Source: a phage. Taken from it: DNA of 64,000 nt. The stretch lies in NCBI GenBank assembly GCA_022143435.1, contig GCA_022143435.1_3941.1, one strand, 5' to 3'. The position numbers were made by a program, and so were the translations under genes. Under the pieces are notes generated by a model. That model searched no databases and was not told the DNA's origin. It saw only the letters and a program-made list of their open reading frames with translations. Below are positions 1 through 16,329 of this stretch, in pieces; within the stretch, counting starts at the first letter, position 1; each line of letters starts with the position of its first letter.

Positions 1-10
1 CTATAAAAAC

Positions 11-193
11 CTACCTGCACAATTCTAAAATGATTTTTCTTGCCCGACCTGAGCGGGGTCTGCACGTTTTGAAAATGAAAAAGCTCTTTGGAGATTACCT
101 GCACAGTTTGAAAATGAATTTTCTCTTTGGAGTTCAAAATTCTCTCTACAGATTTCTCTACAGAACTCTACCTGCACAATTCTAAAATGAAAA
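11..193. repeat. Four direct copies of a ~23-bp motif (CTGCAC-N2-TT-N2-AAAATGA; at 11-33, 59-83, 95-119, 168-193) plus tandem TCTCTACAGA x2 (144-164); non-coding region at window start
   Basis: Read directly in sequence; no ORF in the ORF track covers this region. Confidence 0.6.
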
Positions 194-263
194 AGCCCTC
201 CTTACCTGAAAAATTTACCAGATAAGAAAGGCTTAGGCTATTGTGAATATACTACAGAGTTTC

Positions 264-1049
264 TTAGTTCTTTGCGTCTAAGAAGGTAACTTCTGGTGAA
301 GAGAAGATTGCCTCGATATCCTCATCAGTTCTTGCATAGATATAAGCTTCTGCATCACTACCAAATGTTACAGCAATTCTGTGATTGCTCTTTGACAGGT
401 GGGTAACTAGAGCGTTACTTAGAGACATCTTTTCAACCGGAGGGTTACTTTGATGTATCTTACCTTTTCTTCGTCTGAATAGGGTAACTGCGTTATCTGT
501 GAACACTGCTACACCTGCAAAGTATTCTGGTTCACAGTAGTTCTTCCAACCTGAGCGTAACTTGTGGTACATCTCGCCTTCATAGACATACAGATAAACA
601 TCTACACTCTTCATCACCTGATTGATGATAACTGTGATGGCTTGAGGGTCAAGTCCACCGATACCTGCACCAATCATAGGTAAACCAACTTTCTTCAACT
701 GATTAACTTCACAGTATCTGTTAAGCTGTTTCAAAGATGACTCTAAAGCACTGTATCGGGCATCTTTACCAGTCTTAAGCTGAGTGTAAAGGTTAGCTAT
801 ACGACCTTGTTTTAAGCGTGCTACAGAGAAATTACCTAGTAAATTCTCACAGGGTTTGTGACCTATACCACCTGCATAGAGATAAACTTCTGTATCGGTC
901 TCATATGCTTTTGGGTAAAGTTTAGAAATCTTGTCAGCGATACCTGCGCCCATTAGGTTCATGCAGTTACAACCATGACCAATGATGTCAAACTTACCTT
1001 TATCAAATGCAGCAAAGATATCACCATTGATGATTTTTACAATACCCAT
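264..1049 (-). CDS. Macro-domain protein (ADP-ribose binding/processing fold) with C-terminal extension
   Basis: N-terminal GDI...DIIGHGCNC...MGAGIA and later GLPMIGAGIGGLDP match the two glycine-rich macro-domain signature motifs. Confidence 0.6.
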   Translation of the reverse strand: MGIVKIINGDIFAAFDKGKFDIIGHGCNCMNLMGAGIADKISKLYPKAYETDTEVYLYAGGIGHKPCENLLGNFSVARLKQGRIANLYTQLKTGKDARYSALESSLKQLNRYCEVNQLKKVGLPMIGAGIGGLDPQAITVIINQVMKSVDVYLYVYEGEMYHKLRSGWKNYCEPEYFAGVAVFTDNAVTLFRRRKGKIHQSNPPVEKMSLSNALVTHLSKSNHRIAVTFGSDAEAYIYARTDEDIEAIFSSPEVTFLDAKN

Positions 1050-1328
1050 TTAGCATCTCTCCCAAGATTCTTTATCTTCTGAAGGTTTTACACGTTGCCC
1101 CTCATGGTCTACCCAGATGCACCCACAACCTTCACAGATTACTGGCATTGCATAACCAGCTTTAAAATCATCTTCAGTGATAAGACCTTTTAAGTCACCT
1201 GTATCACGTCCGAACATTTCGATAGAACAGTCTTTACAGAAGTCAGCCATGAATAATTGCCTCTTGAATGATGATACCTTTACCACAACGACTTTTAAAG
1301 TCTTCCAATGGTTCAGAGATGAAGCCAC
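1050..1328 (-). CDS. Small Cys-rich (zinc-ribbon-like) protein; likely true start at internal Met (MADFCKDC, ~1250)
   Basis: CxxC...CxGC pattern; overlaps next ORF so internal start is more plausible. Confidence 0.35.
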   Translation of the reverse strand: MASSLNHWKTLKVVVVKVSSFKRQLFMADFCKDCSIEMFGRDTGDLKGLITEDDFKAGYAMPVICEGCGCIWVDHEGQRVKPSEDKESWERC

Positions 1329-1470
1329 GTAAGCAGTCAGTGAATACTAAGTTCTTCCTGTAAGCTATCACATCATTTGCTGTAAATGGGATGACCTCAT
1401 TTCGTCCAATGAATACTGCTGACCTTATAAGTTTTCGTGTCTTTTTATCTCTGGCTAGTATTACTTTCAT
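1243..1470 (-). CDS. Hypothetical protein
   Basis: ORF in co-directional gene array; no recognised motif. Confidence 0.3.
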   Translation of the reverse strand: MKVILARDKKTRKLIRSAVFIGRNEVIPFTANDVIAYRKNLVFTDCLRGFISEPLEDFKSRCGKGIIIQEAIIHG

Positions 1471-1771
1471 AGTTTACCTTCTCAGTTAGTTCATATAAAT
1501 CAACATGCTCAATACTGTCAATGTTGATATCAATCTTTTTGAAACGCTCCATCACTTCGTTATCAGTCATCCATATCAGACACCAATGATTCTGGATGGA
1601 TTCTTCAAGAAGGTCAACACAATCTTTAAAGGTTTTTGTATCACTTCTTGTTCCTACTACTGCGATTGTTCCATATAGCCACTTACCATTGCCATAAGAT
1701 ACTTGTGCTACGCCAACTTCTTTACCTTTCTCATAGTAAACGGCTACAAAGTCTCTTCCATTAATCTGCAT
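1445..1771 (-). CDS. Hypothetical protein
   Basis: ORF tightly packed in minus-strand array. Confidence 0.4.
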   Translation of the reverse strand: MQINGRDFVAVYYEKGKEVGVAQVSYGNGKWLYGTIAVVGTRSDTKTFKDCVDLLEESIQNHWCLIWMTDNEVMERFKKIDINIDSIEHVDLYELTEKVNYESNTSQR

Positions 1772-1773
1772 AG

Positions 1774-2043
1774 TTACTTCCTCGTTTTAAGAACTGCTAA
1801 GATTTCTTTAGAATCTGGTAAGAACCATGTGTAGTGATTCTCTTTGATTTCTGGATGAGTGTCAACCTTTATTTTGCACTCTTTACCAACATGTTTAAGC
1901 TGTGCTGTGACACCTTGCATAAAGATATGGCACATCACATTATCCATAATGGTTGGTGAGAAATCAATTCGCATATAAGTCTCTTTTGGTCGTGGTAACA
2001 GTAAGTACCCTTCTACGTAAAAAGTATCTTGATTCTCTGTCAT
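1774..2043 (-). CDS. Hypothetical protein
   Basis: ORF tightly packed in minus-strand array. Confidence 0.4.
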   Translation of the reverse strand: MTENQDTFYVEGYLLLPRPKETYMRIDFSPTIMDNVMCHIFMQGVTAQLKHVGKECKIKVDTHPEIKENHYTWFLPDSKEILAVLKTRK

Positions 2044-2309
2044 TGCTGCTTATTCCCTAATAAAATCATGTCAATAAGGTTGTTAGCTTTGATTGTGCAC
2101 TGGTAAAAGCCGTCACGATAGAACTCAAGGGCTGCTGCTACATCGCTGCCTGTGTTGCCTTTGATGATATACCGTGATTCTTCTTGGGTGTACTTATCAC
2201 CCTCACTTACTTGGGAGTTTTTGAATGTACTGCTCACTTTGTTCGTTGAACACCCTGACATAGTTATCAGTAACACAAACATTATAAAACTCTGGCTTAG
2301 TTTTTTCAT
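2040..2309 (-). CDS. Putative lipoprotein, possible o-spanin
   Basis: Signal peptide with lipobox (LITMSGC); start lies inside 3' end of upstream membrane-protein gene in another frame (Rz/Rz1-like overlap). Confidence 0.35.
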   Translation of the reverse strand: MKKLSQSFIMFVLLITMSGCSTNKVSSTFKNSQVSEGDKYTQEESRYIIKGNTGSDVAAALEFYRDGFYQCTIKANNLIDMILLGNKQQ

Positions 2310-2550
2310 ATGTTAGTACCTCTTTTGTATGCTTATTCTTAGCAAGCACATCTTTCAAATCATTTTTGTAATTGGTGCTGAGTGTGGCTAAACCTTCCTG
2401 ATAAGCATCTTTAGCAACACTTATTAGTTTCTCATTATTTAGCTCAGTTTCAGCAACTTGATAGTCTCTGTAAGAGTATCCTCCCCAGACACCTGCACCA
2501 ACTAAGAAAACAATTATGAAAGTAGCTTGACAGAACTCTTTAAATGTCAT
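2203..2550 (-). CDS. N-terminal transmembrane protein, possible i-spanin
   Basis: Single N-terminal TM helix (FIIVFLVGAGVWGG) then charged, helix-prone region; overlaps lipoprotein gene. Confidence 0.35.
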   Translation of the reverse strand: MTFKEFCQATFIIVFLVGAGVWGGYSYRDYQVAETELNNEKLISVAKDAYQEGLATLSTNYKNDLKDVLAKNKHTKEVLTYEKTKPEFYNVCVTDNYVRVFNEQSEQYIQKLPSK

Positions 2551-2562
2551 TTAACAATCTCC

Positions 2563-2590
2563 TAAAATGAAAAAGGCTCCCGAAGGAGCC
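2563..2590 (-). terminator. Hairpin GGCTCC-CGAA-GGAGCC followed by T-run on minus strand
   Basis: Inverted repeat and T-tract read in sequence. Confidence 0.5.
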
Positions 2591-2602
2591 TGTATCTTAA
2601 CC

Positions 2603-3067
2603 TTAACCGAGGACTTTAGCAAGGATATTCGCAGCCATCGAAGAAGCTTTTGCAGCAGCAACTACGCCAGCTTTGACAGTGCTATCCTTAATAGCAGATA
2701 CCGTTGCAGCATCAGTAAAGAGATAAGTGATTGTTTTAGAACCACTTGTAAAGGAAAGCATAAGAGTAGTTTCCAGATTGAAAGAGCGATACGGAGCACC
2801 TTCTTTAACGATACCTTCAGCACCTAACTCTGAAGCCTTGCCCATATCATAGATAGTCATCAGGTTTTCTTTGTGTGCAGTAGTTGAACCAGCACCTTTT
2901 ACGTGTTTTTTAACATTCAATAATGCACGATATTCACGAATGCTGCCATCAGCTTTTACATTAACAGCACGAAAAATTTTACCTTCAAAGTTACCTTGAA
3001 TCATTTTACGAACTATTGCAGATTTGTTTACCGTATCGTCCAGTGCTACCGTAATGATATTGTTCAT
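2603..3067 (-). CDS. Hypothetical protein
   Basis: ORF; no recognised motif. Confidence 0.4.
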   Translation of the reverse strand: MNNIITVALDDTVNKSAIVRKMIQGNFEGKIFRAVNVKADGSIREYRALLNVKKHVKGAGSTTAHKENLMTIYDMGKASELGAEGIVKEGAPYRSFNLETTLMLSFTSGSKTITYLFTDAATVSAIKDSTVKAGVVAAAKASSMAANILAKVLG

Positions 3068-3077
3068 AAGTTTTCTC

Positions 3078-3773
3078 TCAATGTTTAACTAACATGGTTT
3101 TAATGTGTGGAAGGATTCTGTTCACCTTCTGCACATTCTTCTCTGTGTCTTCTATAAAACATACTATATTAAAGTAAGGCAGGATGCAAGACTGAATCAT
3201 CCTCACTTTCAAACTTTCTGCACTTATAGAGTTAGTTCCAAAACCACGCATAAAAAGCATGTAGTCATGCTCTATGTTGTGCCTTAAAAACATCTCAGTA
3301 GGTATTCTCTGAGATTCACCTCTCGCTGTCAAGAGTCCAATGGCAGCATGATTAGCAATTGCATCAATAATACTAAAGACATACGTTGGTTTTGCTCTTA
3401 CAGAGTCAAGAAGATTAGTGTACTGTGAGAATGACCCATCAGTCAATTCCGTTGAGCAATCTTCGTGATTAAAATTTGTAAGAACACCATCAATATCTGC
3501 TAAGATGAGGTTACCTTTTTCTACAAGGTCTTTATTGACTATGACTAAGCTATCACGACTTACACCTATAGTTTGTCCAGTCTCTTTATCTACAACATTC
3601 ACAATTGGCTCTGATGTGTGGAACTCTTCGAGTGAACATACAACTTCTCTTGCAGTGTCTTCAAAATCCCTACACTGTTCTGGAGTCCATACACAGGAAT
3701 CAAGACCTAACTCATGAGGATGTAAGTCGTAAGCATGACACAGTACTTCATCAGACTTTTTTAATTTTTTCAT
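3078..3773 (-). CDS. HAD-superfamily phosphatase (possible deoxynucleotide 5'-phosphatase)
   Basis: HAD motif I ADIDGVLT; phage nucleotide-metabolism context. Confidence 0.5.
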   Translation of the reverse strand: MKKLKKSDEVLCHAYDLHPHELGLDSCVWTPEQCRDFEDTAREVVCSLEEFHTSEPIVNVVDKETGQTIGVSRDSLVIVNKDLVEKGNLILADIDGVLTNFNHEDCSTELTDGSFSQYTNLLDSVRAKPTYVFSIIDAIANHAAIGLLTARGESQRIPTEMFLRHNIEHDYMLFMRGFGTNSISAESLKVRMIQSCILPYFNIVCFIEDTEKNVQKVNRILPHIKTMLVKH

Positions 3774-4299
3774 GGTTTACCTTAGAAATGTTTGTTGCAA
3801 ATTCACATTGAGCAATGACTTTCATGTTGTTATAGACATCTTGAGAATATTTCTTAGCTTTAGGGATTTTGTACGAATACCCAGCATTATATGATGCTAA
3901 AACTTTTTGTAAAGTCTTCTTTGACTTTGGCTGACCATGCACCTTTGTCCAAAACTCAAGCTCTTTGTGAGTTTCCTTCGCAGCATAGTTAAAGTCTTTT
4001 AAGAGTTTCTTTTTAGCCACATTAGGACTAATTTTGTTACGCTTTACAACAGTCTTCAAGTGATTCTGGAAAATACCATAATCATGTGTCTTTTTATTCT
4101 CTACCTTCAGACCTAACTCTGACTCTTGTAAGGCTATAGCAGCTAGAGTGATACCCCAACCTTTACCCATGTTGTTCTCACCATACTGGTAAGCTTTTAA
4201 CATGTTTACTTTTTGGCTAATTGATAGCTCTGGGCAGTCAACTGCATAAGATAAGTGTGCTGTAAACATTAAGCACAAACCTAGAATCAATTTCTTCAT
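3751..4299 (-). CDS. Secreted lytic transglycosylase-like protein (SLT domain); candidate endolysin or periplasmic murein hydrolase
   Basis: N-terminal signal peptide; QESELG...DYGIFQ resembles the SLT catalytic E-S...G(L/I)xQ motif. Confidence 0.45.
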   Translation of the reverse strand: MKKLILGLCLMFTAHLSYAVDCPELSISQKVNMLKAYQYGENNMGKGWGITLAAIALQESELGLKVENKKTHDYGIFQNHLKTVVKRNKISPNVAKKKLLKDFNYAAKETHKELEFWTKVHGQPKSKKTLQKVLASYNAGYSYKIPKAKKYSQDVYNNMKVIAQCEFATNISKVNHEKIKKV

Positions 4300-4359
4300 T
4301 GGTTCTCCTGTTTAGTTTATCGTGACAACAATTATACAGCACTCTGCACAAAATACAAA

Positions 4360-4386
4360 TAAAAAAGGCCGCCGAAGCAGCCTTTT
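4360..4386 (-). terminator. Rho-independent terminator hairpin (AAGGCCGC-CGAA-GCAGCCTT) with T-run on minus strand
   Basis: Inverted repeat plus TTTTTT on minus strand. Confidence 0.55.
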
Positions 4387-4399
4387 AAGAAATTACTTA

Positions 4400-5509
4400 T
4401 TAGATTTCACGTTTACGCTGAGAGATAAGTTCACCAGCAGTGCCAACGATGACATGCAAAGCTTCAGTCTTGCCATCCCATGATTTCAGTACTTTACGTT
4501 GATTATCAACGATTGCTGCAACTTCATAACGTGATGAACGCATCTTCATATCGTTGTAATCAGTTGGAACAGATACAACATCTCGTGGATGGACACGAAC
4601 CTTCAGAATTGTATCACCTGAGAAGCAACGAACATAATCCCAAGCACCAACGTGAAGACCTTGAGAGCAAGTCACGTTACGGTTATTATCAACCATCCAA
4701 CGTGGCATTTCTACAATGTTACCTAAATCATTAGGTACTCTGTAGGTGTGGGAGTCAACCAGCTTGCCTTCACGAGTAGAGACTTTCTTCCAACCAATGA
4801 TGTAGCCTTCTTCATCAATTTCAACATCAAGGTGAGATATGAATCCCCAAAGTTGTTCTACAGAATCTTTAGATGGGTTTTCCATCAGTTTTTCTAAGAA
4901 CATTACAAGTCGTTCAAAACCTTTATCACCAGTCTTCATCATGTGAAGTATACGGTCAACCAGAGTAGAACGCATCTCAACAGCACCGTAGAATAGCTTA
5001 TCACCTTTGATTGTGATAGCTCCCTGCGTGAAGTTTTCGATAGACTTACGAATGTTCATCAGTTCAAAGGCTTTCTTGAACTCACCTTTCACAACATGAA
5101 CTACAATCTCTTGATAGTTCGGATGAGTAGACTCAACAATTTCAGATTCTGAACCGTAAGTCATAATTACAGAGTCACCAGTAATCATGTACTCAATCTT
5201 GTCATCTTTCTGCATAGCTTCATGCAGTTTATTTACTGGAGCTTTCTGTACAGACTCTTTAACAACCTTTTCAACTGGTTTGTCAGCTTTCTTTTTAAAG
5301 GTCTTAGCAACTTGCTTCAAAGTCTTCGTAGCTGGTGTAGAAGTCACCTTCTTATTCCCTTTTAAGGTTGCTTCATGACGCTCTACAGCACGACCGACTG
5401 AACGGGTTGAGGTGTTAAATTTCTGTGCAATAGCGGTTTTAGTCAGCTTGCCCTCTTTAACCAGTTTGTAAATTTCTGCGTCAATCTGTGCTTTAGTTTT
5501 AGTAGTCAT
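4400..5509 (-). CDS. rIIB: rIIB-like protein (N-terminal HTH-like region)
   Basis: Lies immediately downstream of the rIIA-like gene; N-terminal HTH-like segment; assignment mainly by synteny. Confidence 0.4.
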   Translation of the reverse strand: MTTKTKAQIDAEIYKLVKEGKLTKTAIAQKFNTSTRSVGRAVERHEATLKGNKKVTSTPATKTLKQVAKTFKKKADKPVEKVVKESVQKAPVNKLHEAMQKDDKIEYMITGDSVIMTYGSESEIVESTHPNYQEIVVHVVKGEFKKAFELMNIRKSIENFTQGAITIKGDKLFYGAVEMRSTLVDRILHMMKTGDKGFERLVMFLEKLMENPSKDSVEQLWGFISHLDVEIDEEGYIIGWKKVSTREGKLVDSHTYRVPNDLGNIVEMPRWMVDNNRNVTCSQGLHVGAWDYVRCFSGDTILKVRVHPRDVVSVPTDYNDMKMRSSRYEVAAIVDNQRKVLKSWDGKTEALHVIVGTAGELISQRKREI

Positions 5510-5551
5510 CTTATTACTCTCTCTTGTTAGTTAATAAATCATTTTGTGATG

Positions 5552-5578
5552 CTATTTTAAGGGGCTTTGAAGCCCCTT
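5552..5578 (-). terminator. Hairpin AAGGGGCTT-TGA-AGCCCCTT
   Basis: Inverted repeat; flanking U-tract is weak. Confidence 0.4.
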
Positions 5579-5588
5579 ATCAAACACT

Positions 5589-7955
5589 TTAATCGTAAAT
5601 TGTAGTCCCTTCTGGAACACATTTTACATCAAAGCCTAAGAACTTACTCACTTCGATGGGTGACACTTTATTCCAATCTAAATGAGAAAGCAAGAAGTTT
5701 TCTTGTTTTCTTTTTGAAAGGTAGTTTGTCACCTTAATGACCATACGGTCACCAGCTTTCTTAATTTTCTTGTAAAGCTTTGTATCATTGTCAAGACAGT
5801 CTTTCAAAGTTTTCAATACACTAATAGTATAAGTGTATGCAAATGGTGCAGCAACGTATTGGATTTTACCGAACATTGCCTCTACAGCCTCTTCATTACC
5901 TTCTAAGAAGATAGTTTTGTTTGTGTCTCGTGAATAGCAATAGCCACGAGAAATATTCCTGTTATTGAACGTAAAGTTTCTGGCAATAATCCAACTGCTT
6001 GTAAGGTCAAGGACACCATTCATATAGATACGTGTCATATACCTGTTATGATTAATCCAATGAACATCAGTTAAGCTGTCGTTCAAGAGTTTCTCATCTA
6101 CTTCAATCCAGTCTTCTGGTATCTTTTTCCAATTTGCTTTTCGGAAAACATAGACTGTCTTCCCTGTAACATTAGCAACTGACTTGGCTACATCTTCTGG
6201 AGATGAGCAAAAACATTCGCCATCAACTGTGTCACCAACTGCCTTAATGTAAAGCTGAGGTTCTTCAATTGTATCAAAGTCCTCTAAAACCTCTTTATAG
6301 GAAGCTACACCTTCTGCTGGAACAGCTTTCCAGAGTTTTACAACACCCCTTACAGCTTCTTTGCGCTGGTAATGGTGCTCCTTATCAGACATTTTCACAA
6401 TCTTTAACAAGCTTTTATCAAGTTTGTGTAGATTTATTAAATCATCCAACTCTTTTTCAGTCGAGAATACAAACACAATACCATTGTATCTGTGGAACAG
6501 GCTTGACTCGTTGGCGTAGTCTCGACATGCACCACGCAAGATTTGATTGCGGCCTACAGTCTTTTCAGTACCGTTTTTATTGCGACGGTCATTAATCACG
6601 AACAAAAACTGTTCAATTTGGCTTTTACGCATTGCACCAAAAATATTGAACATGCTCGCCTCTTGAGTGTAGGAAAGTGCTGTTGCACGAATCTTACTCT
6701 CTAAAGAGTTAAACTTAACATAGGCAACTGGATTGTATAGGTAGTCAACTTTAGGGATATTGTTTCCTTTGCTGTCAACCTTAATATTACCTTTGCCGTC
6801 ACGTTCATAAATGACTGAGCCGTCTTCTGCGTAGATAATTCCACGACGAATGTTTAGTAATTCTTCTTCCAGAGAATCAAGCTTAACACCTCCCCACTCT
6901 AGCTTTGGACACACAACATTAAACATCTCTCGTGAGTTTAAGCGTAACTCAGCATAAGCCTGTGCAGCATCCATGAGTGTAGGTTGACTATTAACTTTCT
7001 TGATAACATCCTTTGTAATTGCTTCAGTTATCTTTTTAGTAGCCTCGATGATAACATTTTTTGTCGTGTCATTCATCTGCAATGCTTCACGAGAAGCTGC
7101 AATAGCAACTGAACCAATAGGCATGTAGATGTTTACAAGGTCTATGCTCCTGCGGAAAAATTCTGGTAATACTTTGAAGAAATCATCACCAAGTAATGCC
7201 TCCATATTAACTGGGTAGGCAATATTACCCATAACCACGTTAAACTCTGTTCTATTGCTGCTTGAACGCCAGCTATGCTTATGAGTCATGGCATCATAGA
7301 CACCTTCTTCACGAGCAATCACATCCATATCTGCTAATATATCATTATACTCCACATTACTCTCTGGTTTTACAGCAAAGTATGAGTATACATTACCAGC
7401 CTCTTCAAAGAACTTTGAAATACGGTGGTCAGCAACTGCCACACGTACAGCTAAACCATTAGGTTCTTTTGTTGGGTTAGTGGTCAGTTTAGTTACTTGA
7501 GGGATACCATTCTCAAGATAAACAGAGTACTTATTAACAACACCGTCAACATAGCTAGACACTGTGAATGACTGAGCAATTGCAAATGGTGACTTTGAGC
7601 CGATACCCATTGCACCAATGTAGTCATTGGAGTCATTCTTTGTAGAAGCCCCGTAGTTTAGGTACAAGCTCATAACTTTGTCATGAGTTAATCCAGTTCC
7701 AAAATCACGAACTTCAAAGTAAGGCTCAAAACGAGTAGGTAAATGCACATGGAATGGGATGTTCTCTTTTCCAGCTTCTTTCTGAGCATCTACTGCGTTA
7801 CATGACAGTTCACGAATAACTGCCCTTTCTTTAAATGTGTATACACCAGAACTCAAAAGGCTGAACATTTCAGGTGTCATTGTAATCTGTGCTTGAGACG
7901 TCTCTAAAGAAGTTGAACTCTTAATCACTTCTGCGTGGTCGTTTACCATGCGCAT
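5589..7955 (-). CDS. rIIA: rIIA-like protein with N-terminal GHKL (Bergerat-fold) ATPase domain
   Basis: GHKL N-box (ELSCNAVDA), G1 box (RDFGTGL) and G2-like GAMGIGSKS; size comparable to T4 rIIA. Confidence 0.55.
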   Translation of the reverse strand: MRMVNDHAEVIKSSTSLETSQAQITMTPEMFSLLSSGVYTFKERAVIRELSCNAVDAQKEAGKENIPFHVHLPTRFEPYFEVRDFGTGLTHDKVMSLYLNYGASTKNDSNDYIGAMGIGSKSPFAIAQSFTVSSYVDGVVNKYSVYLENGIPQVTKLTTNPTKEPNGLAVRVAVADHRISKFFEEAGNVYSYFAVKPESNVEYNDILADMDVIAREEGVYDAMTHKHSWRSSSNRTEFNVVMGNIAYPVNMEALLGDDFFKVLPEFFRRSIDLVNIYMPIGSVAIAASREALQMNDTTKNVIIEATKKITEAITKDVIKKVNSQPTLMDAAQAYAELRLNSREMFNVVCPKLEWGGVKLDSLEEELLNIRRGIIYAEDGSVIYERDGKGNIKVDSKGNNIPKVDYLYNPVAYVKFNSLESKIRATALSYTQEASMFNIFGAMRKSQIEQFLFVINDRRNKNGTEKTVGRNQILRGACRDYANESSLFHRYNGIVFVFSTEKELDDLINLHKLDKSLLKIVKMSDKEHHYQRKEAVRGVVKLWKAVPAEGVASYKEVLEDFDTIEEPQLYIKAVGDTVDGECFCSSPEDVAKSVANVTGKTVYVFRKANWKKIPEDWIEVDEKLLNDSLTDVHWINHNRYMTRIYMNGVLDLTSSWIIARNFTFNNRNISRGYCYSRDTNKTIFLEGNEEAVEAMFGKIQYVAAPFAYTYTISVLKTLKDCLDNDTKLYKKIKKAGDRMVIKVTNYLSKRKQENFLLSHLDWNKVSPIEVSKFLGFDVKCVPEGTTIYD

Positions 7956-8141
7956 AATACTTTCCTCTCAGTTTACTGTTAAATTACTTATTAAACATTT
8001 TACCAGAACCACCACACATAGGGCAACATCCTGCCCTTATGTACCCCTCTCCATTACAGTAGTCACATTTTTTGTGCTCTGCAAAGTACTTGCAAAGGAG
8101 GTAGACAAATACTGCTACACTACCAAGTGACAGTAAAATTT

Positions 8142-8477
8142 CTATCCAATATGCTTGCATGACTCACCTCTCATATTCTTGTAAAGGATAAAGCTTCTGT
8201 CATGGACGATACTTGTAGACACTGCAAAGTTACTTTCAAGCATCTGTTTGTTTGGATTGTAGAAGCTTTCTTTAAACTCGTCAAGTGCAAATTGGTGATT
8301 ATCTGGAAGACCTTTTACACAGACCTTTATTGTAATTGCTGCTGCGACCTTGCCAGTCAGTTCTTCTTTAGCTGCTACTAAAATTTTGTTAAGGAACTTA
8401 TGACCATCTTCAGGCTTCTTGATGTTCTCCCAACGTTCTTCTAAGACAATGTTGATGTTCATCTCTTTGATTTTCAT
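8142..8477 (-). CDS. Hypothetical protein
   Basis: ORF; no recognised motif. Confidence 0.4.
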   Translation of the reverse strand: MKIKEMNINIVLEERWENIKKPEDGHKFLNKILVAAKEELTGKVAAAITIKVCVKGLPDNHQFALDEFKESFYNPNKQMLESNFAVSTSIVHDRSFILYKNMRGESCKHIG

Positions 8478-8490
8478 AGTTTTCTCCAGA

Positions 8491-8516
8491 AATTAAAAAG
8501 GCTCCCGTAGGAGCCT
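8491..8516 (-). terminator. Rho-independent terminator (GGCTCC-CGTA-GGAGCC then TTTTTAATTT on minus strand)
   Basis: Inverted repeat plus T-run directly downstream of the NAMPT gene. Confidence 0.6.
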
Positions 8517-8530
8517 CTTATCATATACTT

Positions 8531-10312
8531 TTAAAGCTGCTTGTCAATATTATTTCGAATATCCCCAAGAGTTGTGTAACCGAACTGCTCAGAGTCACTA
8601 AAGACTAAACGTAAGGCACAAGCTGGGTGGTCAAGTACATCTGCAAAACTCTGGAATCCATAGCCATCTATAGCTTTCAGCTTGTCACCATCCCACATAG
8701 GTGCTACACCACCAAAGGCAGATTTCTTAACACCACTATCTGTTTTAGGGTCTTTTGCAAGCATAATCTCTTTACCACCAATGCTTGCAAGAGTTGCTTT
8801 GACAGCAAATGCAAAGGTGTCACGAGTCATGTACTGGTAAGTGTAAGAACCTACGCCAAACACTACGTTAGAGCTTGCAAAACCCATTTCATACAGACGC
8901 TTCAGGATTTCGTTTGCACGTTCCAGCGTGATAGAGTCACCATAGATAAGTCCGATATGCTCATCCAGTACCTTAAACCCTTTAGAGTTAATAGTTCCCC
9001 CAAAGATGTTGTACAGTGTCTTAATAGCTCCATCAATCTCAGCTACAGGACGTGTTACAACGTTTGCAGAACCAACCATATAAGCGTTTTTCAGCAGCAC
9101 TGTATCAGCAACTTCAAAGTCTTCTCTGTCAACAACCATTTCGTAGCCTTCTGACAGTAGCCATCCAGCAATACCATAATTGATGTTTTCAAGCTTCATG
9201 TTCAGAACAGCATTCAACATTGTGTCACTGGCTTCAAGCTTGCTTAAGTGTTCGTAATAAGCCTTTTTAGCACACTCTAAGTGGATTGCTTTATAACCTG
9301 TGACAATATGTACAGGGTCTCCAGAGTCAGGACGAATTACCAGTTTACCGTCACGTCCCATAATCTCTTTGCGAAGTGCTGGTAAGATTTCTGACACAGT
9401 TCTCCAGAAGTTATAAGTGTCTGAAACAACACTTGCAATACCAGTTGGGTAAGTTTCTGTTAAGAAACGACGGAAGGTTTGTAACTCACCTTTAAAGCGT
9501 CTTTCTTCTTCAATCAACTCATTACCACCTTCCCAAGCAATGTTTGCACACATTACAGAGTGTTCAGTGGCTGGTACAGAACTACCAATATCAGAGATTG
9601 GGTAAGACTGTCCATAGATGCGTTTAGCCGTGTATACAGCAGGGAAGCTATCGGTTCCTTTAAAGCTGGTTAAGTGACCTACAGCGTTAAATGCGTCATC
9701 AGTAAAGCCGGACATACCACGCATAGCAAAGTCGTGACACTGATAAGGTAAATGTAGGTCGTTGTCACAAGTAAGGTCAGCCCACTTCTTACATATACGT
9801 TTGTAGTGCAATGCAATAGTCGCAATGGTGCAAGCCTTCCAAATCTCAGCAGAGAAAGCATCTTCCAGATAACCTGCTACCCAATGGAAGCCTGAAACAG
9901 TGTTCTGGAAGACAATCATTGGGACACGCATCGGGACAACTGTACCTTCTTCTACAGCATATACTTCAACTGGTAGATAACCTAAATCGTGGAGTGCTTC
10001 CCAATGCTCTCGACCGATAGCATCTTTGCCCAGAACACCATTCATGACTTCTAAGATTTCGTCAATTGCTTCTTTTTTGTCACGTTCAAAGAACGTAGCA
10101 TTCCAGTGGTCTATCAAGTAATCTTTAACAAAACGTTGAATACCAAAAGCGACTACACCATCAATTGCTAATGGACTGTTAAACCATTTGTCGCTACGTG
10201 GTGTCAGGTTGAACATCAAATATTCTGTTGCACTAGGGTACTGGTAAACATGACCAGATTTGTAAGCATCTGCGTTTAAACCTGCTGGTACTGCATAAAG
10301 TGATTTAGTCAT
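8531..10312 (-). CDS. nadV: Nicotinamide phosphoribosyltransferase family protein (NadV/NAMPT-like; possibly a nicotinamide ADP-ribose transferase)
   Basis: NAMPT-type motifs (SDTYNFW, LIYGDSIT); adjacent to a PRPP-synthetase-like gene. Confidence 0.8.
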   Translation of the reverse strand: MTKSLYAVPAGLNADAYKSGHVYQYPSATEYLMFNLTPRSDKWFNSPLAIDGVVAFGIQRFVKDYLIDHWNATFFERDKKEAIDEILEVMNGVLGKDAIGREHWEALHDLGYLPVEVYAVEEGTVVPMRVPMIVFQNTVSGFHWVAGYLEDAFSAEIWKACTIATIALHYKRICKKWADLTCDNDLHLPYQCHDFAMRGMSGFTDDAFNAVGHLTSFKGTDSFPAVYTAKRIYGQSYPISDIGSSVPATEHSVMCANIAWEGGNELIEEERRFKGELQTFRRFLTETYPTGIASVVSDTYNFWRTVSEILPALRKEIMGRDGKLVIRPDSGDPVHIVTGYKAIHLECAKKAYYEHLSKLEASDTMLNAVLNMKLENINYGIAGWLLSEGYEMVVDREDFEVADTVLLKNAYMVGSANVVTRPVAEIDGAIKTLYNIFGGTINSKGFKVLDEHIGLIYGDSITLERANEILKRLYEMGFASSNVVFGVGSYTYQYMTRDTFAFAVKATLASIGGKEIMLAKDPKTDSGVKKSAFGGVAPMWDGDKLKAIDGYGFQSFADVLDHPACALRLVFSDSEQFGYTTLGDIRNNIDKQL

Positions 10313-10330
10313 CTTTTAATCTCTCTCAAA

Positions 10331-10348
10331 ATGGGGCTTTCAAGCCCC
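10331..10348 (-). terminator. Hairpin GGGGCTT-TCAA-GCCCC between prs-like and nadV-like genes (possible attenuator)
   Basis: Inverted repeat; weak U-tract. Confidence 0.4.
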
Positions 10349-10357
10349 TATAAACTT

Positions 10358-11254
10358 TCAATCAAGGTTTGCTACAGTAACTTGACCATAATGTGTTAAG
10401 CCACGGTCTTTAGCTTCGCCTAAAGAGTTTGTAGTGTAAATATGGTCGATACCATTGTCAAGAAGGTTTTCAACACCTTTAGAGAAGATACCATGTGTTA
10501 CATAAAGCTCAACACGTTTTGCACCTGCTTCACGAAGATGTTTCACTGCTTCTATGAAGGTTCGACCACCATCACAGATATCATCCAGAATCATGACGGT
10601 TTTATCTGTCAAATCAACATCATCAAGGATTCGCATACCAGTAATTTCACCAGTCTTAAGGTTACGCACTTTAGACATTGTGATGTATGGTTTATCCACC
10701 TCTTTAGCAGTCTCTGCAATCTTCTTAGCAGCACCTGCATCTGGGGCTACTAAGTAATCAATCAGTGGGTCATTTGCATAGTGGACTGCAATTTCCTTTT
10801 GAGAAATACTCTGGAAGCAGTTAAACAGGTTATCTGGTACATAGCTGTGAGGGTCAACTGCACAGACTGCATCAAAACCCATTGCATTAACCTGTTGTGC
10901 AAACACTTTCAAAGCTGCTGCATCACCTTTAAACATGTGACGGTCGTAACGTGCATTTGGCAAATAGTAAAAGATAGCAGTCTTCATAGCAAACTTATGA
11001 GGTACTAAATCATCAATTGCTTCTTTAGCAAGTGCCACAGCAAACAATGTGTCCTTATCATAACCTTTTACAATCATAATCACATTGTTGATAGATGATG
11101 CTGCATAAGCAGTAAAATCAACAAACTCTGGCGAAAAGTGTCCACCAATCTCACCAGAAGGGAATTGGACGATGTTAAACTCTTCTTCATGAGTCCCTTT
11201 AGTTGGTGAATGAACTGTAACACGGATAGATGTTTTCATAGTTTTCTCTCTCAA
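10358..11254 (-). CDS. prs: Ribose-phosphate pyrophosphokinase family protein (Prs-like; possibly ADPR-PP synthetase)
   Basis: PRTase/PRPP-binding motif ILDDICDGGRT and Prs-like VDPHS segment. Confidence 0.8.
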   Translation of the reverse strand: MREKTMKTSIRVTVHSPTKGTHEEEFNIVQFPSGEIGGHFSPEFVDFTAYAASSINNVIMIVKGYDKDTLFAVALAKEAIDDLVPHKFAMKTAIFYYLPNARYDRHMFKGDAAALKVFAQQVNAMGFDAVCAVDPHSYVPDNLFNCFQSISQKEIAVHYANDPLIDYLVAPDAGAAKKIAETAKEVDKPYITMSKVRNLKTGEITGMRILDDVDLTDKTVMILDDICDGGRTFIEAVKHLREAGAKRVELYVTHGIFSKGVENLLDNGIDHIYTTNSLGEAKDRGLTHYGQVTVANLD

Positions 11255-14075: not shown

Positions 14076-14684
14076 TTATTTTTTCTTACAATTGTCAAAA
14101 TGATATCGAGTCATGTTACCAGCACCACCAGTCATACCACAATGAGGGCAAGTTTTCTTTTTCTTTGGCTTTTTTCCGGCTTCTGACATCTTCTTCCTTG
14201 TTTCTATAGACCTTTTACAACCTTTTGATTTTGTATTGCCTATTTGAGATTCTCCTAACCGTCTTCGATGTTCTTCAGTGAAAACCCTACCTTTATTCAC
14301 AATAGATAGAGCTTTCGAGTTCAAAGCCCTTACCTTTTCATAGTCTCTGGATGATATTTTCCTATCTAGGCCATCATGGGCTAACCTGTTCCATGCAAAC
14401 CATAACTTATGATTGTTTGGATACATCTTAACCAGTAATTTATGAGCTATATAATGCTCTCTAGGTGTAAGTAAAGCAATATTATCTCCACTAATTTTAT
14501 CGCCACCTAGACATACTGGTATGATATGGTGTCTTTCATAACCCTTACCTTGACATTTGTAGTATGTAAGAGGCACACCCCTTTCAGAATGTGCCTTCTT
14601 AATAATTGCATTATATATTAGTTCGTAATTCATTTGTATGCTACATAGAAACCCTATCCTTAATTTCTGCCATCTTAGCGTCAT
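14076..14684 (-). CDS. HNH homing endonuclease (free-standing, abutting 3' end of nrdD); likely start at internal Met ~14633
   Basis: HHIIPVCLGGDKISGDNIALLTPREH...H HNH motif. Confidence 0.65.
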   Translation of the reverse strand: MTLRWQKLRIGFLCSIQMNYELIYNAIIKKAHSERGVPLTYYKCQGKGYERHHIIPVCLGGDKISGDNIALLTPREHYIAHKLLVKMYPNNHKLWFAWNRLAHDGLDRKISSRDYEKVRALNSKALSIVNKGRVFTEEHRRRLGESQIGNTKSKGCKRSIETRKKMSEAGKKPKKKKTCPHCGMTGGAGNMTRYHFDNCKKK

Positions 14685-15609
14685 TCATTCGAGACTGACC
14701 TTTAATTTTTGTGAATGACAAGTACCCGCACACCCTGTTAATCACAGAGATGTCATGTGAATGGCAAACCTCACATTCTTCAACATCAGCCTTTGGTCTG
14801 TTACCACAATGTTCACAGATTGCTAAGTCAAAGTTAAGCCCCTGATAGAAACCTTTCAACATCCCTCTTGTGATACAACTTTTAAGTGCTGTTAAGTTTT
14901 CTGGATTAGCTACCCTGACATACTGGATTCTGCCACCTCTACAGATATGGAAGAATGGCTCTTCTAAGTCCTGCTTCTTAAATGGTGAGATGTCTGCTGC
15001 AACATTCATATGGAAACTGTTTGTAAAGTATTCCTTATCAGAAACACCTTTGATAACGCCAAACATATCTCTGAACTGTTTTAACTGAGTTCCGCAAAGT
15101 GATTCTGCTGGAGTACCATAGACGGCATATAAGAAGCCATCTTCATTTTTAAACTCTTCAGTTTTCATGTTGATGTATGCCAGAACATCGTATGCAAAAC
15201 TACAGCTTCCAACTTCATGAAGTCGTTTACCTTCAGCAAGAACAGATAGCTCATCAAGCGCAGTAACACCAAAAGAAGCTGTGAAGGACTTCACAATATC
15301 CCAACCAACCTTGTCAGTAGGCTTCTTAGTTCCTTTGTACAGACCACCTTGTGTAAATGCAAGAGGGTTAGAACTTGCTGGCATATTAGCAATCATTTCG
15401 TAACGTTTCTTGTGGAAACTACGAATCATCTCTAGGTACTTATCAAGCTCTTTCCAGAAATCTAAACCATTCTCTTTGGTGTACTGATAAATCATTGGTA
15501 AGTTCAAAGATACAGCACCAATGTTAGCACGACCTACATAAAACTCTTCACCATGTTCGTTATGGTATGGTGATAAAAATGCTCTACACTTGTTGTTCAA
15601 GTAAGTTCG
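14641..15609 (-). CDS. nrdD: Anaerobic ribonucleoside-triphosphate reductase, 3' exon (glycine-radical and Zn-ribbon part); 5' boundary approximate
   Basis: C-terminal CEHCG...CEVCH Zn site and RVCGYL glycine-radical motif; ORF track starts on a TTG, reading frame is open up to ~15609. Confidence 0.75.
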   Translation of the reverse strand, partial: RTYLNNKCRAFLSPYHNEHGEEFYVGRANIGAVSLNLPMIYQYTKENGLDFWKELDKYLEMIRSFHKKRYEMIANMPASSNPLAFTQGGLYKGTKKPTDKVGWDIVKSFTASFGVTALDELSVLAEGKRLHEVGSCSFAYDVLAYINMKTEEFKNEDGFLYAVYGTPAESLCGTQLKQFRDMFGVIKGVSDKEYFTNSFHMNVAADISPFKKQDLEEPFFHICRGGRIQYVRVANPENLTALKSCITRGMLKGFYQGLNFDLAICEHCGNRPKADVEECEVCHSHDISVINRVCGYLSFTKIKGQSRMNDAKMAEIKDRVSM

Positions 15610-16329
15610 CTAAGCTTACCCCGCTTTATTCAAGCTGCTTACTGTCGCCAGTAAGTCCAGACTATATCTTCTACTTATTTCTAAGTAGCGTACCATTTCG
15701 AGTCGCTTGACCCTACACCGCTACATTCATCACGGTTAGTCGTTCGGCATTTAGATGTATTCAAACTCATATTCGAAGTTATTATGCTCTTTTACACCCT
15801 TCAATATTGAAGAGATGGTCTTGCGATTGTGTCCAAGTATATTGGATAACTCTCGTATTGACTTAGTAACAATAACTTCCTTTGTCACTTTGTGTGTGGC
15901 TTTCACGGCATATGAACGTTTGTGGAACTTGTAGCATCCGTTCTCATAACCTTCTTTAGCATTCTCAGAATGAGTACCCCATTCTAAGTTAGATGCGTGG
16001 TTATTTAGTTTGTTATCGTCCTTATGTTTTACAATTGGAAGATTATTCGGGTTAGGTACATATTTCTCAGCAACTAACCTGTGGACATACATGTCACGAT
16101 TCTTCTTACCGTAAAACCTTACTTTCATATACCCAGTGTTGGATTTCCACTGCGTAAGCTCTACACCATTTTCCCTAAAGACTTTCCATCTTCAGTGACG
16201 TGATAGTTTGGCATGTAAGACTCCTATGTTGTATAGTTTCTTACATCGTACATCATTTAGCACAGGATTGTCTACATCTGTAGAGTTTCCCTGTTTAGGC
16301 ACGTTTTAGATGAGCTATAGAGCTTGTTA
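15610..16329 (-). mobile_element. Group I intron interrupting nrdD, carrying an HNH endonuclease ORF; boundaries approximate
   Basis: nrdD split into two in-frame halves separated by ~720 bp; segment ~16243-16303 (minus sense CTAAACAGGGAAACTCT...TAGACAATCCTGTGCTAAAT) resembles, from memory, the conserved core of the T4 td group I intron. Confidence 0.65.
15751..16128 (-). CDS. Intron-encoded HNH homing endonuclease
   Basis: HKDDNKLNNHASNLEWGTHSEN HNH motif; located inside the nrdD intervening sequence. Confidence 0.7.
   Translation of the reverse strand: MKVRFYGKKNRDMYVHRLVAEKYVPNPNNLPIVKHKDDNKLNNHASNLEWGTHSENAKEGYENGCYKFHKRSYAVKATHKVTKEVIVTKSIRELSNILGHNRKTISSILKGVKEHNNFEYEFEYI

What the first reader, a model, noticed from the sequence alone, without database searches (positions are those of the whole stretch)
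264..1049. Phage-encoded macro-domain protein
The N-terminal ~150 aa carry both glycine-rich macro-domain motifs (DIIGHGCNC..MGAGIA and GLPMIGAGIGGLDP), followed by ~100 aa of unknown function. Macro domains bind or hydrolyse ADP-ribose derivatives. In a lytic phage this suggests reversal of ADP-ribosylation or turnover of ADP-ribose-derived molecules, which fits the NAD+ salvage genes in the same block. This is a plausible counter-defence function but is unproven.
Basis: partly seen in the sequence, partly recalled or inferred. Interest (0 to 1): 0.6.

Follow-up and report, generated by a model that had tools for sequence, protein, structure and literature searches.

The report
Phage macrodomain protein with orphan tail
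This is a real macro-domain (ADP-ribose-handling) gene of a Felix O1-like E. coli phage, related to a phage T4 gene recently shown to protect T4 from the DNA-ADP-ribosylating DarTG2 defence; it carries an extra fast-evolving domain found nowhere else, and it is a useful but not surprising find.

Summary
The ORF is real: 264..1049 on the minus strand, 261 aa. Residues 1-156 are a macro domain (Pfam above threshold). An AlphaFold model matches TARG1 and DarG structures. The window is a Felixounavirus, and about 258 GenBank relatives carry this gene, usually annotated 'phosphatase'.

The closest characterised relative is T4 Tk.4 (AdfM), 34% identical with the same four signature motifs. Deleting tk.4 sensitises T4 to DarTG2. 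The best reading is therefore an orphan, early-expressed ADP-ribosylglycohydrolase that removes DarT2-type ADP-ribose from phage DNA (confidence 0.5, inferred).

Two features depart from DarG:
- The catalytic lysine of DarG, TARG1 and PhiKZ AdfM is an invariant glutamine here. The same holds in T4 Tk.4 and in all 32 clade members examined.
- Residues 157-261 form an orphan domain with no Pfam match, no significant fold match and no relatives outside this fusion family. It diverges about twice as fast as the macro domain.

Near-identical Felixounaviruses carry one of two alleles only 41% identical, a pattern typical of counter-defence genes.

The 'NAD+ salvage' genes lie 7.5 kb away and are the NARP1 pair (Adps/Namat). 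A link to them is possible but unsupported.

The parts
264..1049 (-). Complete CDS, 261 aa plus TAA stop: a two-domain macro protein, orthologue of ekra_14 and HY02 gp013, which are annotated 'phosphatase'
582..1049 (-). Macro domain, residues 1-156
   Evidence: Pfam PF01661; DarG models; AF2 model and Foldseek matches to TARG1, DarG and Poa1p over about 156-177 columns
936..977 (-). Residues 25-38, HGCNCMNLMGAGIA: invariant His25 and Asn28 plus the first Gly-rich ADP-ribose-binding loop
   Evidence: Asn28 aligns with PhiKZ AdfM N23, whose mutation lowers activity.
780..794 (-). Residues 86-90, NLYTQ: clade signature. Gln90 occupies the position of the catalytic Lys of DarG (K80), TARG1 (K84) and PhiKZ AdfM.
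648..674 (-). Residues 126-134, IGAGIGGLD: second Gly-rich (diphosphate-binding) loop, DarG-like (GVGNGGLD)
267..581 (-). C-terminal orphan domain, residues 157-261: one helix, a six-strand beta unit and a final helix in the model. Only Pro174, Gly179 and Tyr236 are conserved.
193..234 (-). Terminator-like hairpin followed by a T-run, 30 nt after the stop codon. It is the probable end of the leftward early transcription unit.
   Evidence: consensus scan only
1050..1250 (-). Upstream 66-aa Cys-rich ORF (CxxC...CxxCxC; PHROG 2210, function unknown). Its TAA stop directly abuts the macro ATG (TGC TAA ATG), and a GGGAGAG Shine-Dalgarno-like run lies inside it, so translation is probably coupled.
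8531..11254 (-). Context only: the NAMPT-like (8531..10312) and PRS-like (10358..11254) pair, the Felixounavirus NARP1 genes (Namat and Adps). No functional link to the macro gene is shown.

Best explanation
The gene encodes an orphan, phage-borne ADP-ribosylglycohydrolase of the T4 Tk.4 (AdfM) clade. It is expressed from the leftward early gene arm. The macro domain binds the ADP-ribose moiety through its two glycine-rich loops and removes ADP-ribose that a host DarT2-type toxin has attached to thymidines in single-stranded phage DNA. This restores replication, so the protein acts as an antitoxin mimic against DarTG2-type defence. The chemistry cannot be the Lys-dependent mechanism of DarG or TARG1, because that Lys is an invariant Gln here. 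Catalysis presumably relies on the invariant His25, Asn28 and Thr89-Gln90 positioning a water molecule or the substrate. The C-terminal 105-residue orphan domain is most likely a fast-evolving accessory binding module, for substrate, DNA or toxin, rather than an enzyme. Status of the steps: the fold, motifs, homology and genomic behaviour are shown here. The substrate, the activity and the role of the C-terminal domain are inferred.
For: The macro domain is established by profile and by fold. The best curated family matches are DarG: NCBIfam NF048014 at 46.8 bits and PADLOC DarG at E=1e-12, both on the macro part only. The top solved structures are TARG1 and the Thermus and M. tuberculosis DarG macrodomains. 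The protein is 34% identical (E=2e-16) over residues 3-160 to the tk.4 product of T4-like phages. It shares the motifs HGCNC, MGAGIA, NLYTQ and IGxGIxG, which are invariant in all 32 clade members examined. In the HIDEN-SEQ transposon screen tk.4 was the single significant hit on DarTG2, and a clean tk.4 knockout sensitised T4 to it (bioRxiv 10.1101/2025.11.20.689424). A DarG-like phage macrodomain, PhiKZ gp104, removes DarT2-made ADP-ribose from DNA in vitro. The Asn mutated there (N23A) aligns with invariant Asn28 here. The gene is core in the group, with about 258 records carrying a full-length copy. It nevertheless exists as two alleles only 41% identical in genomes that are otherwise about 95% identical, and the swap is confined to the gene body. 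That pattern is typical of counter-defence loci. The gene lies among early genes, and no toxin gene is adjacent.
Against: No experiment exists on any Felixounavirus copy. The T4 evidence is genetic only, and no biochemistry on Tk.4 is reported. The Lys essential in DarG (K80) and TARG1 (K84), and retained in PhiKZ AdfM, is Gln in this clade, so DarG-like activity cannot simply be transferred. Identity to DarG is only 22%, slightly below that to Poa1p (27%) and TARG1 (26%). Macro domains of one clade can differ in substrate. The extra C-terminal domain is absent from T4 Tk.4 and could redirect specificity. Whether Felixounaviruses meet, or are sensitive to, DarTG2 was not found in the papers searched.
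Confidence: 0.5

Rival explanations
1. The protein hydrolyses soluble ADP-ribose derivatives, acting as a Poa1p-like ADP-ribose-1''-phosphate phosphatase or O-acetyl-ADP-ribose deacetylase. It would regenerate free ADP-ribose from dead-end by-products such as ADPR-P or ADPR-cyclic-phosphate and so feed the phage's NARP1 pathway (Adps + Namat), which rebuilds NAD+ from ADP-ribose and nicotinamide.
For: Database annotations ('phosphatase', 'O-acetyl-ADP-ribose deacetylase') derive from Poa1p and MacroD similarity. The H-x-C-N-C motif and the absence of the catalytic Lys resemble Poa1p (HSCNC; Ser at the Lys position), and identity is highest to Poa1p, at 27%. The phage carries NARP1 on the same strand. 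In the Felixounavirus Bas63 this pathway uses ADPR and produces ADPR-PP together with ADPR-cyclic-phosphate, which the authors suggest is its likely spontaneous hydrolysis product. One clade member (P0026) is fused to a cREC_REC 'cyclic-phosphate processing' domain. Iyer et al. 2022 argue that many phage Macro domains act on soluble ADPr derivatives.
Against: The gene is 7.5 kb from NARP1, with unrelated lysis, rII and PNK genes between them. The same clade occurs in T4-like phages in an unrelated neighbourhood (vs, tk, regB), and no NARP1 was seen there. The NARP1 paper does not mention a macro protein (0 occurrences of 'macro'). Of the three Poa1p residues that depositors mutated (H23, S30, F152), only the His is conserved. 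The only phenotype known in the clade is DarTG2 sensitivity.
Confidence: 0.2
2. The protein removes mono-ADP-ribose from proteins or RNA rather than DNA. It would reverse host ADP-ribosyltransferase toxins or defence effectors that modify proteins, mRNA or tRNA during infection.
For: The top structural match is TARG1, a protein-glutamate and nucleic-acid-end ADP-ribosylhydrolase. Viral nsP3 and nsp3 macrodomains that de-MARylate proteins also match at E about 1e-7. Macro domains are broadly promiscuous (review text). A PNK (RNA-end repair) gene lies 2 kb upstream in the same gene arm.
Against: The TARG1 catalytic Lys84 is absent. No phage-encoded ADP-ribosyltransferase is annotated in the first 45 kb of a related genome. 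No phenotype links the clade to protein or RNA ADP-ribosylation. The closest curated family models are DarG, a DNA-specific enzyme.
Confidence: 0.15
3. The protein is a non-catalytic ADP-ribose binder. It would either sequester ADP-ribose-derived immune signals (gcADPR, His-ADPR) as a sponge or shield ADP-ribosylated DNA. Loss of the catalytic Lys would reflect loss of enzyme activity.
For: The Lys-to-Gln replacement sits at the catalytic position. Macro domains serve as signal receptors in type II Thoeris ThsA. One GenBank record annotates the allele-B copy as 'high-affinity ADP-ribose binding module'.
Against: His25, Asn28, Thr89 and Gln90 are strictly invariant across proteins that are otherwise 30-40% identical. 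This argues for a conserved active site rather than a decayed one. Stoichiometric shielding of DNA lesions would not restore replication. No sponge-like oligomer or phenotype is known.
Confidence: 0.07

Closest known systems
T4 Tk.4 = AdfM (anti-DarT factor macrodomain; bioRxiv 10.1101/2025.11.20.689424)
   Same: Same clade. It is 34% identical over the whole macro domain. The signature motifs HGCNC, MGAGIA, NLYTQ and IGxGIxG are identical, including Gln at the DarG and TARG1 Lys position. It is likewise an orphan gene of a virulent myovirus of E. coli.
   Different: Tk.4 is a stand-alone macro domain of 159 aa. The Felixounavirus protein adds a 105-aa orphan C-terminal domain. The gene neighbourhoods differ: vs/tk in T4 against the rII-lysis-PNK arm here. 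Only Tk.4 has a phenotype.
PhiKZ gp104 AdfM (Cell Rep 2026, PMC13309987)
   Same: A phage-encoded orphan macrodomain with the conserved Asn (N23, aligned to Asn28 here) and a GGLD-type second loop.
   Different: Only 22% identical. It keeps the DarG-type 'FPTK' catalytic Lys and is a true DarG2-like sequence. It is imported into the phage nucleus and has no C-terminal orphan domain.
DarG antitoxin of DarTG2 (PDB 5M31, 5M3E, 5M3I; C-terminal domain 7YK3)
   Same: The best-scoring curated family models. Structural match at E=4e-8 and TM 0.80 normalised to the target. Shared Asn and a GxGxGGLD loop.
Human TARG1/OARD1 (PDB 4J5Q, 4J5R, 4J5S)
   Same: Top sequence and structure match in the PDB. It shares the His preceding loop 1 and the MGAGIA loop.
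   Different: The K84 of the K84/D125 catalytic dyad is Gln here, and the second loop is longer and DarG-like.
Yeast Poa1p ADP-ribose-1''-phosphate phosphatase (PDB 6LFQ-6LFU)
   Same: Shares the H-x-C-N-C motif and lacks the catalytic Lys. It has the highest pairwise identity among solved macro proteins (27%). It is the origin of the 'phosphatase' annotation.
   Different: The Poa1p residues S30 and F152 are Leu32 and Gly131 here. Poa1p has a long insertion before the second loop. No phosphatase activity has been tested.

Membership tests
Macro domain superfamily (Pfam PF01661) | Profile match above the curated gathering score | tested here: met
   30.5 bits against a cut-off of 22, E=3.9e-7, residues 25-138
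Macro domain superfamily (Pfam PF01661) | Three-layer alpha/beta/alpha macro fold superposable on solved macro domains | tested here: met
   AF2 model with pLDDT 85 and pTM 0.85. Foldseek probability 1.00 and target-normalised TM 0.77-0.81 to TARG1 and DarG.
Macro domain superfamily (Pfam PF01661) | Two glycine-rich ADP-ribose-binding loops | tested here: met
   MGAGIA (residues 33-38) and IGAGIGG (residues 126-132), invariant in the family
DarG (DarTG2 antitoxin) macrodomain | Score at or above the NCBIfam equivalog cut-off | tested here: not met
   NF048014 scores 46.8 bits against a cut-off of 250. Only profile positions 4-154 of 338 are matched.
DarG (DarTG2 antitoxin) macrodomain | Catalytic lysine (K80 in Thermus and M. 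tuberculosis DarG; its role is from my knowledge of Jankevicius et al. 2016) | tested here: not met
   It aligns to invariant Gln90 (NLYTQ against NFPTKK) in two MAFFT alignments that use PDB-verified sequences.
DarG (DarTG2 antitoxin) macrodomain | Conserved active-site Asn (DarG N22; PhiKZ AdfM N23) | tested here: met
   Asn28 is invariant. N23A lowers PhiKZ AdfM activity.
DarG (DarTG2 antitoxin) macrodomain | C-terminal DarT-binding domain | tested here: not met
DarG (DarTG2 antitoxin) macrodomain | Encoded next to a darT toxin gene | tested here: not met
   The neighbours are small phage ORFs of unknown function, spanin genes and a PNK gene.
DarG (DarTG2 antitoxin) macrodomain | Hydrolysis of thymidine-linked ADP-ribose on ssDNA | not testable with these tools
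   Needs an enzyme assay on a DarT2-modified oligonucleotide.
T4 Tk.4 / AdfM-type phage macro clade | Significant similarity to Tk.4 across the whole macro domain | tested here: met
   tblastn gives 34.4% identity at E=2e-16 over residues 3-160, on the CDS annotated tk.4.
T4 Tk.4 / AdfM-type phage macro clade | Clade signature motifs HG[CA]NC, MGAGIA, NL[YF]TQ and IGxGIxG | tested here: met
   Present in the window protein, in Tk.4 and in all 32 homologues that hold a macro domain.
T4 Tk.4 / AdfM-type phage macro clade | Stand-alone macro domain of about 150-185 aa | tested here: not met
   The protein is 261 aa with an added 105-aa domain. This architecture is confined to Ounavirinae-like phages.
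T4 Tk.4 / AdfM-type phage macro clade | Required for phage growth on DarTG2-expressing hosts | not testable with these tools
   Shown only for T4.
Poa1p-like ADP-ribose-1''-phosphate phosphatase | Residues probed by the crystallised Poa1p mutants (H23, S30, F152) | tested here: inconclusive
   H23 is conserved as His25, but S30 aligns to Leu32 and F152 to Gly131. The functional weight of these residues is inferred only from the existence of the mutant entries.
TARG1-type (K84/D125 dyad) | Catalytic Lys-Asp dyad | tested here: not met
   K84 aligns to Gln90. The second loop has the DarG pattern, with Asp134 displaced relative to D125.

The most novel reading that the evidence does not exclude
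The Felixounavirus protein would be a two-pronged antitoxin mimic that arose independently of DarG. A Gln-type macrodomain would erase DNA ADP-ribosylation by a lysine-independent mechanism. The fused orphan C-terminal domain would bind and inhibit the DarT-type toxin, or tether the enzyme to ssDNA. That domain evolves about twice as fast as the macro domain and exists as two alleles only about 19% identical in otherwise near-identical phages. Allele switching would then track different host toxin variants. A second, compatible novelty would be that the liberated ADP-ribose is channelled into NARP1.
Probability: 0.15. Interest if true: 0.65.

Novelty: new variant of a known kind. Interest (0 to 1): 0.4.

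Why it matters
If the reading holds, most Felix O1-like phages carry a built-in counter to DarTG2-type DNA ADP-ribosylation. These phages are widely used as Salmonella and E. coli typing, biocontrol and therapy phages, so this bears on predicting their host range. Two points are of mechanistic interest. The first is how a macrodomain without the DarG/TARG1 lysine could de-ADP-ribosylate DNA, a question that also applies to T4 AdfM. The second is what a fused, clade-restricted, rapidly diverging domain adds. The two-allele dimorphism gives a natural experiment for specificity. The gene is otherwise ordinary: macro domains occur in about 41% of myoviruses, and this gene is already annotated in hundreds of genomes.

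Tried and rejected
1. C-terminal domain identity.
- Pfam gave no hit.
- A profile HMM search of 1.84 billion representative proteins found only the same fusion family. The remaining hits were repeat-boosted matches to PQQ, beta-propeller or otherwise odd proteins, which I judged spurious.
- Foldseek against BFVD found only the orthologue from phage SUSP2.
- The afdb50 library was unavailable.
- hhalign against the DarG C-terminal domain was negative.
- Charge analysis showed no consistent acidic (DNA-mimic) or basic (DNA-binding) character, with pI from 4.6 to 9.5.

2. A divergent cREC domain in the tail. I considered this because clade member P0026 is a Macro-cREC fusion. No Pfam hit supports it, and the predicted beta-rich topology is not a receiver fold, so I rejected it.

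3. A functional operon with NARP1. I rejected this as stated, because the genes are 7.5 kb apart with unrelated genes between them. I kept it only as a rival hypothesis.

4. Upstream small ORF as a conserved partner. The Cys-rich ORF is conserved within Felixounavirus. The ORFs at the same position in more distant relatives are not obviously homologous.

5. Other checks.
- The guessed accession for Bas63 (MZ501111) turned out to be another phage.
- ICP1 AdfB is not a macrodomain enzyme but a DarT-binding protein, so it is not a close analogue.
- Rfam found nothing in the window at gathering thresholds.
- The Poa1p structural paper is not in the library.

Full report
**The observation**

The window holds an ATG-initiated ORF of 261 codons at 264..1049 on the minus strand. 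Its N-terminal part contains the two quoted motifs: DIIGHGCNCMNLMGAGIA at residues 21-38 and GLPMIGAGIGGLDP at residues 122-135. This is far beyond chance:
- Pfam Macro (PF01661) matches residues 25-138 at 30.5 bits, above the gathering score of 22.
- PHROG 335, annotated 'phosphatase', matches the full length at E=5.5e-113.
- The best NCBIfam and PADLOC models are DarG.
- Sequence search of the PDB returns TARG1, coronavirus Mac1, DarG and Poa1p.
- An AlphaFold2 model built on 18 homologues (pLDDT 85, pTM 0.85) matches TARG1 (E=2e-8) and the Thermus and M. tuberculosis DarG macrodomains (E=4e-8 to 3e-7). About 156-177 columns align, which is the macro domain only.

**What the window is**

The first 3 kb are 99.9% identical to Felixounavirus genomes, for example LF82P2 and phage ekra, where the gene is ekra_14, 'putative phosphatase'. 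About 258 phage records carry a full-length copy. GenBank names vary: 'phosphatase', 'O-acetyl-ADP-ribose deacetylase', 'macro domain protein' and 'hypothetical protein'.

The gene is the last one of a leftward arm of small early-type ORFs:
- It lies downstream of rIIA, rIIB, lysin, PNK and spanin genes.
- The stop codon of the upstream 66-aa Cys-rich ORF directly abuts its ATG (TGC TAA ATG), with a GGGAGAG run in front.
- A terminator-like hairpin follows 30 nt after its stop codon.

**Closest characterised relative**

tblastn shows 34% identity (E=2e-16) over residues 3-160 to the CDS annotated tk.4 in T4-like phages. The HIDEN-SEQ preprint reports that tk.4 was the only significant hit when a T4 transposon library was grown on DarTG2. 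It also reports that a clean tk.4 deletion sensitises T4 to DarTG2. The authors name the gene adfM and suggest that it removes ADP-ribose from DNA enzymatically, but they report no biochemistry. Independently, PhiKZ gp104, also called AdfM, is a DarG2-like macrodomain. It removes DarT2-made ADP-ribose from a TNTC oligonucleotide, and an N23A mutation lowers that activity.

**Active-site anatomy**

I aligned the window protein, Tk.4 and stand-alone homologues with PDB-verified sequences of M. tuberculosis and Thermus DarG, TARG1 and Poa1p, and with PhiKZ AdfM.
- The phage clade has four signatures: HG[CA]NC, MGAGIA, NL[YF]TQ and IGxGIxG. All four are present in all 32 macro-bearing homologues retrieved and in Tk.4.
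- Asn28 aligns with DarG N22 and PhiKZ N23.
- His25 aligns with TARG1 H32 and Poa1p H23.
- The second loop (GAGIGGLD) resembles that of DarG (GVGNGGLD).
- The lysine that follows the conserved Thr in DarG (K80), TARG1 (K84) and PhiKZ AdfM ('FPTKD') is an invariant Gln (Gln90) in this clade. Poa1p has Ser at that position.

Pairwise identity to the window macro domain is 27% for Poa1p, 26% for TARG1, 22% for DarG and 22% for PhiKZ AdfM. The protein is therefore a member of the Tk.4 clade, not of the DarG family proper. Any DNA de-ADP-ribosylation by it must use lysine-independent chemistry.

**The C-terminal 105 residues (157-261)**

These residues fold in the models as one helix, a six-strand beta unit and a final helix. 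pLDDT is 72-89 in the full-length model, and the isolated domain model has pLDDT 77 and pTM 0.70. The domain has no detectable relatives:
- No Pfam hit.
- No similarity to the DarT-binding domain of DarG: hhalign probability 0.2%, against a sequence verified as 7YK3_B.
- Only its own orthologue in BFVD.
- A profile search of 1.84 billion representative proteins finds it only in the same macro fusion family. The other hits are spurious repeat matches.

Only Pro174, Gly179 and Tyr236 are conserved, which argues against an enzyme. The domain diverges much faster than the macro domain. Three homologues illustrate this: P0002 (81% macro vs 55% C-terminal domain), P0009 (53% vs 19%) and the P0013 type (about 42% vs 14-19%). 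It has no consistent charge.

Distant homologues (33-41% identical) occupy the same syntenic slot in Ounavirinae-like contigs. The fusion is therefore old within this phage lineage and restricted to it.

**Allelic dimorphism**

A metagenomic Felixounavirus contig (L007) is 95% identical to the window over 1464..9028 and 100% identical over window 1..78. The body of the macro gene, however, has no DNA match, and the proteins are 41% identical. The upstream Cys-rich ORF is identical in protein sequence. This 'allele B' occurs at 95% identity or more in 13 GenBank phages of E. coli and Salmonella, including finno, EcoM2, BPS17L1, Si3 and phiWec172. Nothing lies between 60% and 95%. Finno and EcoM2 are otherwise close relatives of the window phage. 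Cassette-like replacement of one gene in a conserved backbone is typical of loci under host-defence selection.

**The NAD+ genes**

The ORF at 8531..10312 is NAMPT-like and the ORF at 10358..11254 is PRS-like. In the Felixounavirus Bas63 this pair is NARP1 (Adps plus Namat). It rebuilds NAD+ from ADP-ribose and nicotinamide through ADPR-PP. ADPR-cyclic-phosphate was also detected, which the authors suggest is the likely spontaneous hydrolysis product of ADPR-PP. The pair is conserved in about 260 records.

A macro enzyme that releases free ADP-ribose could feed this pathway. One clade member is fused to a cREC 'cyclic-phosphate processing' domain. Against this link, the genes are 7.5 kb apart with unrelated genes between them. 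T4 carries its clade member in an unrelated context. The NARP1 paper does not mention a macro protein. The link is possible but unsupported.

**Verdict**

My confidence in each reading is:

| Reading | Confidence |
|---|---|
| AdfM-type orphan ADP-ribosylglycohydrolase countering DarT2-type DNA ADP-ribosylation, with an accessory fast-evolving binding domain | 0.5 |
| Soluble ADPr-derivative hydrolase feeding NARP1 | 0.2 |
| Protein or RNA de-MARylation | 0.15 |
| Non-catalytic binder | 0.07 |

The gene is a new variant (macro domain plus orphan domain) of a recently recognised kind of phage counter-defence. Interest is moderate. The open points are the lysine-independent mechanism, shared with T4 AdfM, and the role of the orphan domain.

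Noticed in passing
window 1-205: Three to four direct copies of a 22-34-nt element (core TACCTGCACA[A/G]TT[C/T][T/G]AAAATGA) at about 11-33, 60-93/96-117 and 168-190. They lie just beyond the terminator-like hairpin that follows the macro gene, in what is a roughly 520-bp intergenic region in phage ekra. They could be repeated promoters or regulatory sites for the next leftward genes.
   Followed up: partly
window 1050-1250 (-): A 66-aa Cys-rich ORF (CxxC...CxxCxC, zinc-ribbon-like; PHROG 2210, function unknown). Its stop codon abuts the macro start codon. Its protein sequence is identical in a phage whose macro gene is only 41% identical. ORFs at the same position in distant relatives are not clearly homologous.
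   Followed up: partly
window ~211-907 versus L007:8143-8838: The macro gene body is a replaceable cassette. Two alleles, 41% identical at the protein level, occur in Felixounavirus genomes that are otherwise about 95% identical. Allele B is found in 13 GenBank records, and there are no intermediates.
   Followed up: yes
window 8531-11254 (-): The genes annotated in databases as nicotinamide phosphoribosyltransferase and ribose-phosphate pyrophosphokinase are the Felixounavirus NARP1 pair (Namat and Adps) described for Bas63. They are adjacent here, whereas phage ekra has an HNH homing endonuclease gene between them.
   Followed up: partly
window 14641-17526 (-): The anaerobic ribonucleotide reductase gene nrdD is split into two ORFs: an N-terminal half with ATP-cone at 16327-17526 and a C-terminal half with the glycyl-radical domain at 14641-15600. 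They are separated by about 725 bp that contain a 125-aa ORF (15751-16128). A NUMOD3/HNH-type endonuclease ORF lies just downstream (14076-14684). Rfam reported no intron at gathering thresholds.
   Followed up: partly
window 656-674 and 935-953: The two glycine-rich loops of the macro domain are encoded by similar DNA (19 nt, 84% identical), reported as direct repeat D3. This simply reflects the shared G-A-G-I peptide motif.
   Followed up: yes
protein P0026 (metagenomic, 339 aa): A member of the same NLYTQ macro clade is fused to a cREC_REC (PF20274) 'cyclic-phosphate processing receiver' domain instead of the Felixounavirus C-terminal domain. This hints that some clade members handle ADP-ribose cyclic phosphate.
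   Followed up: no
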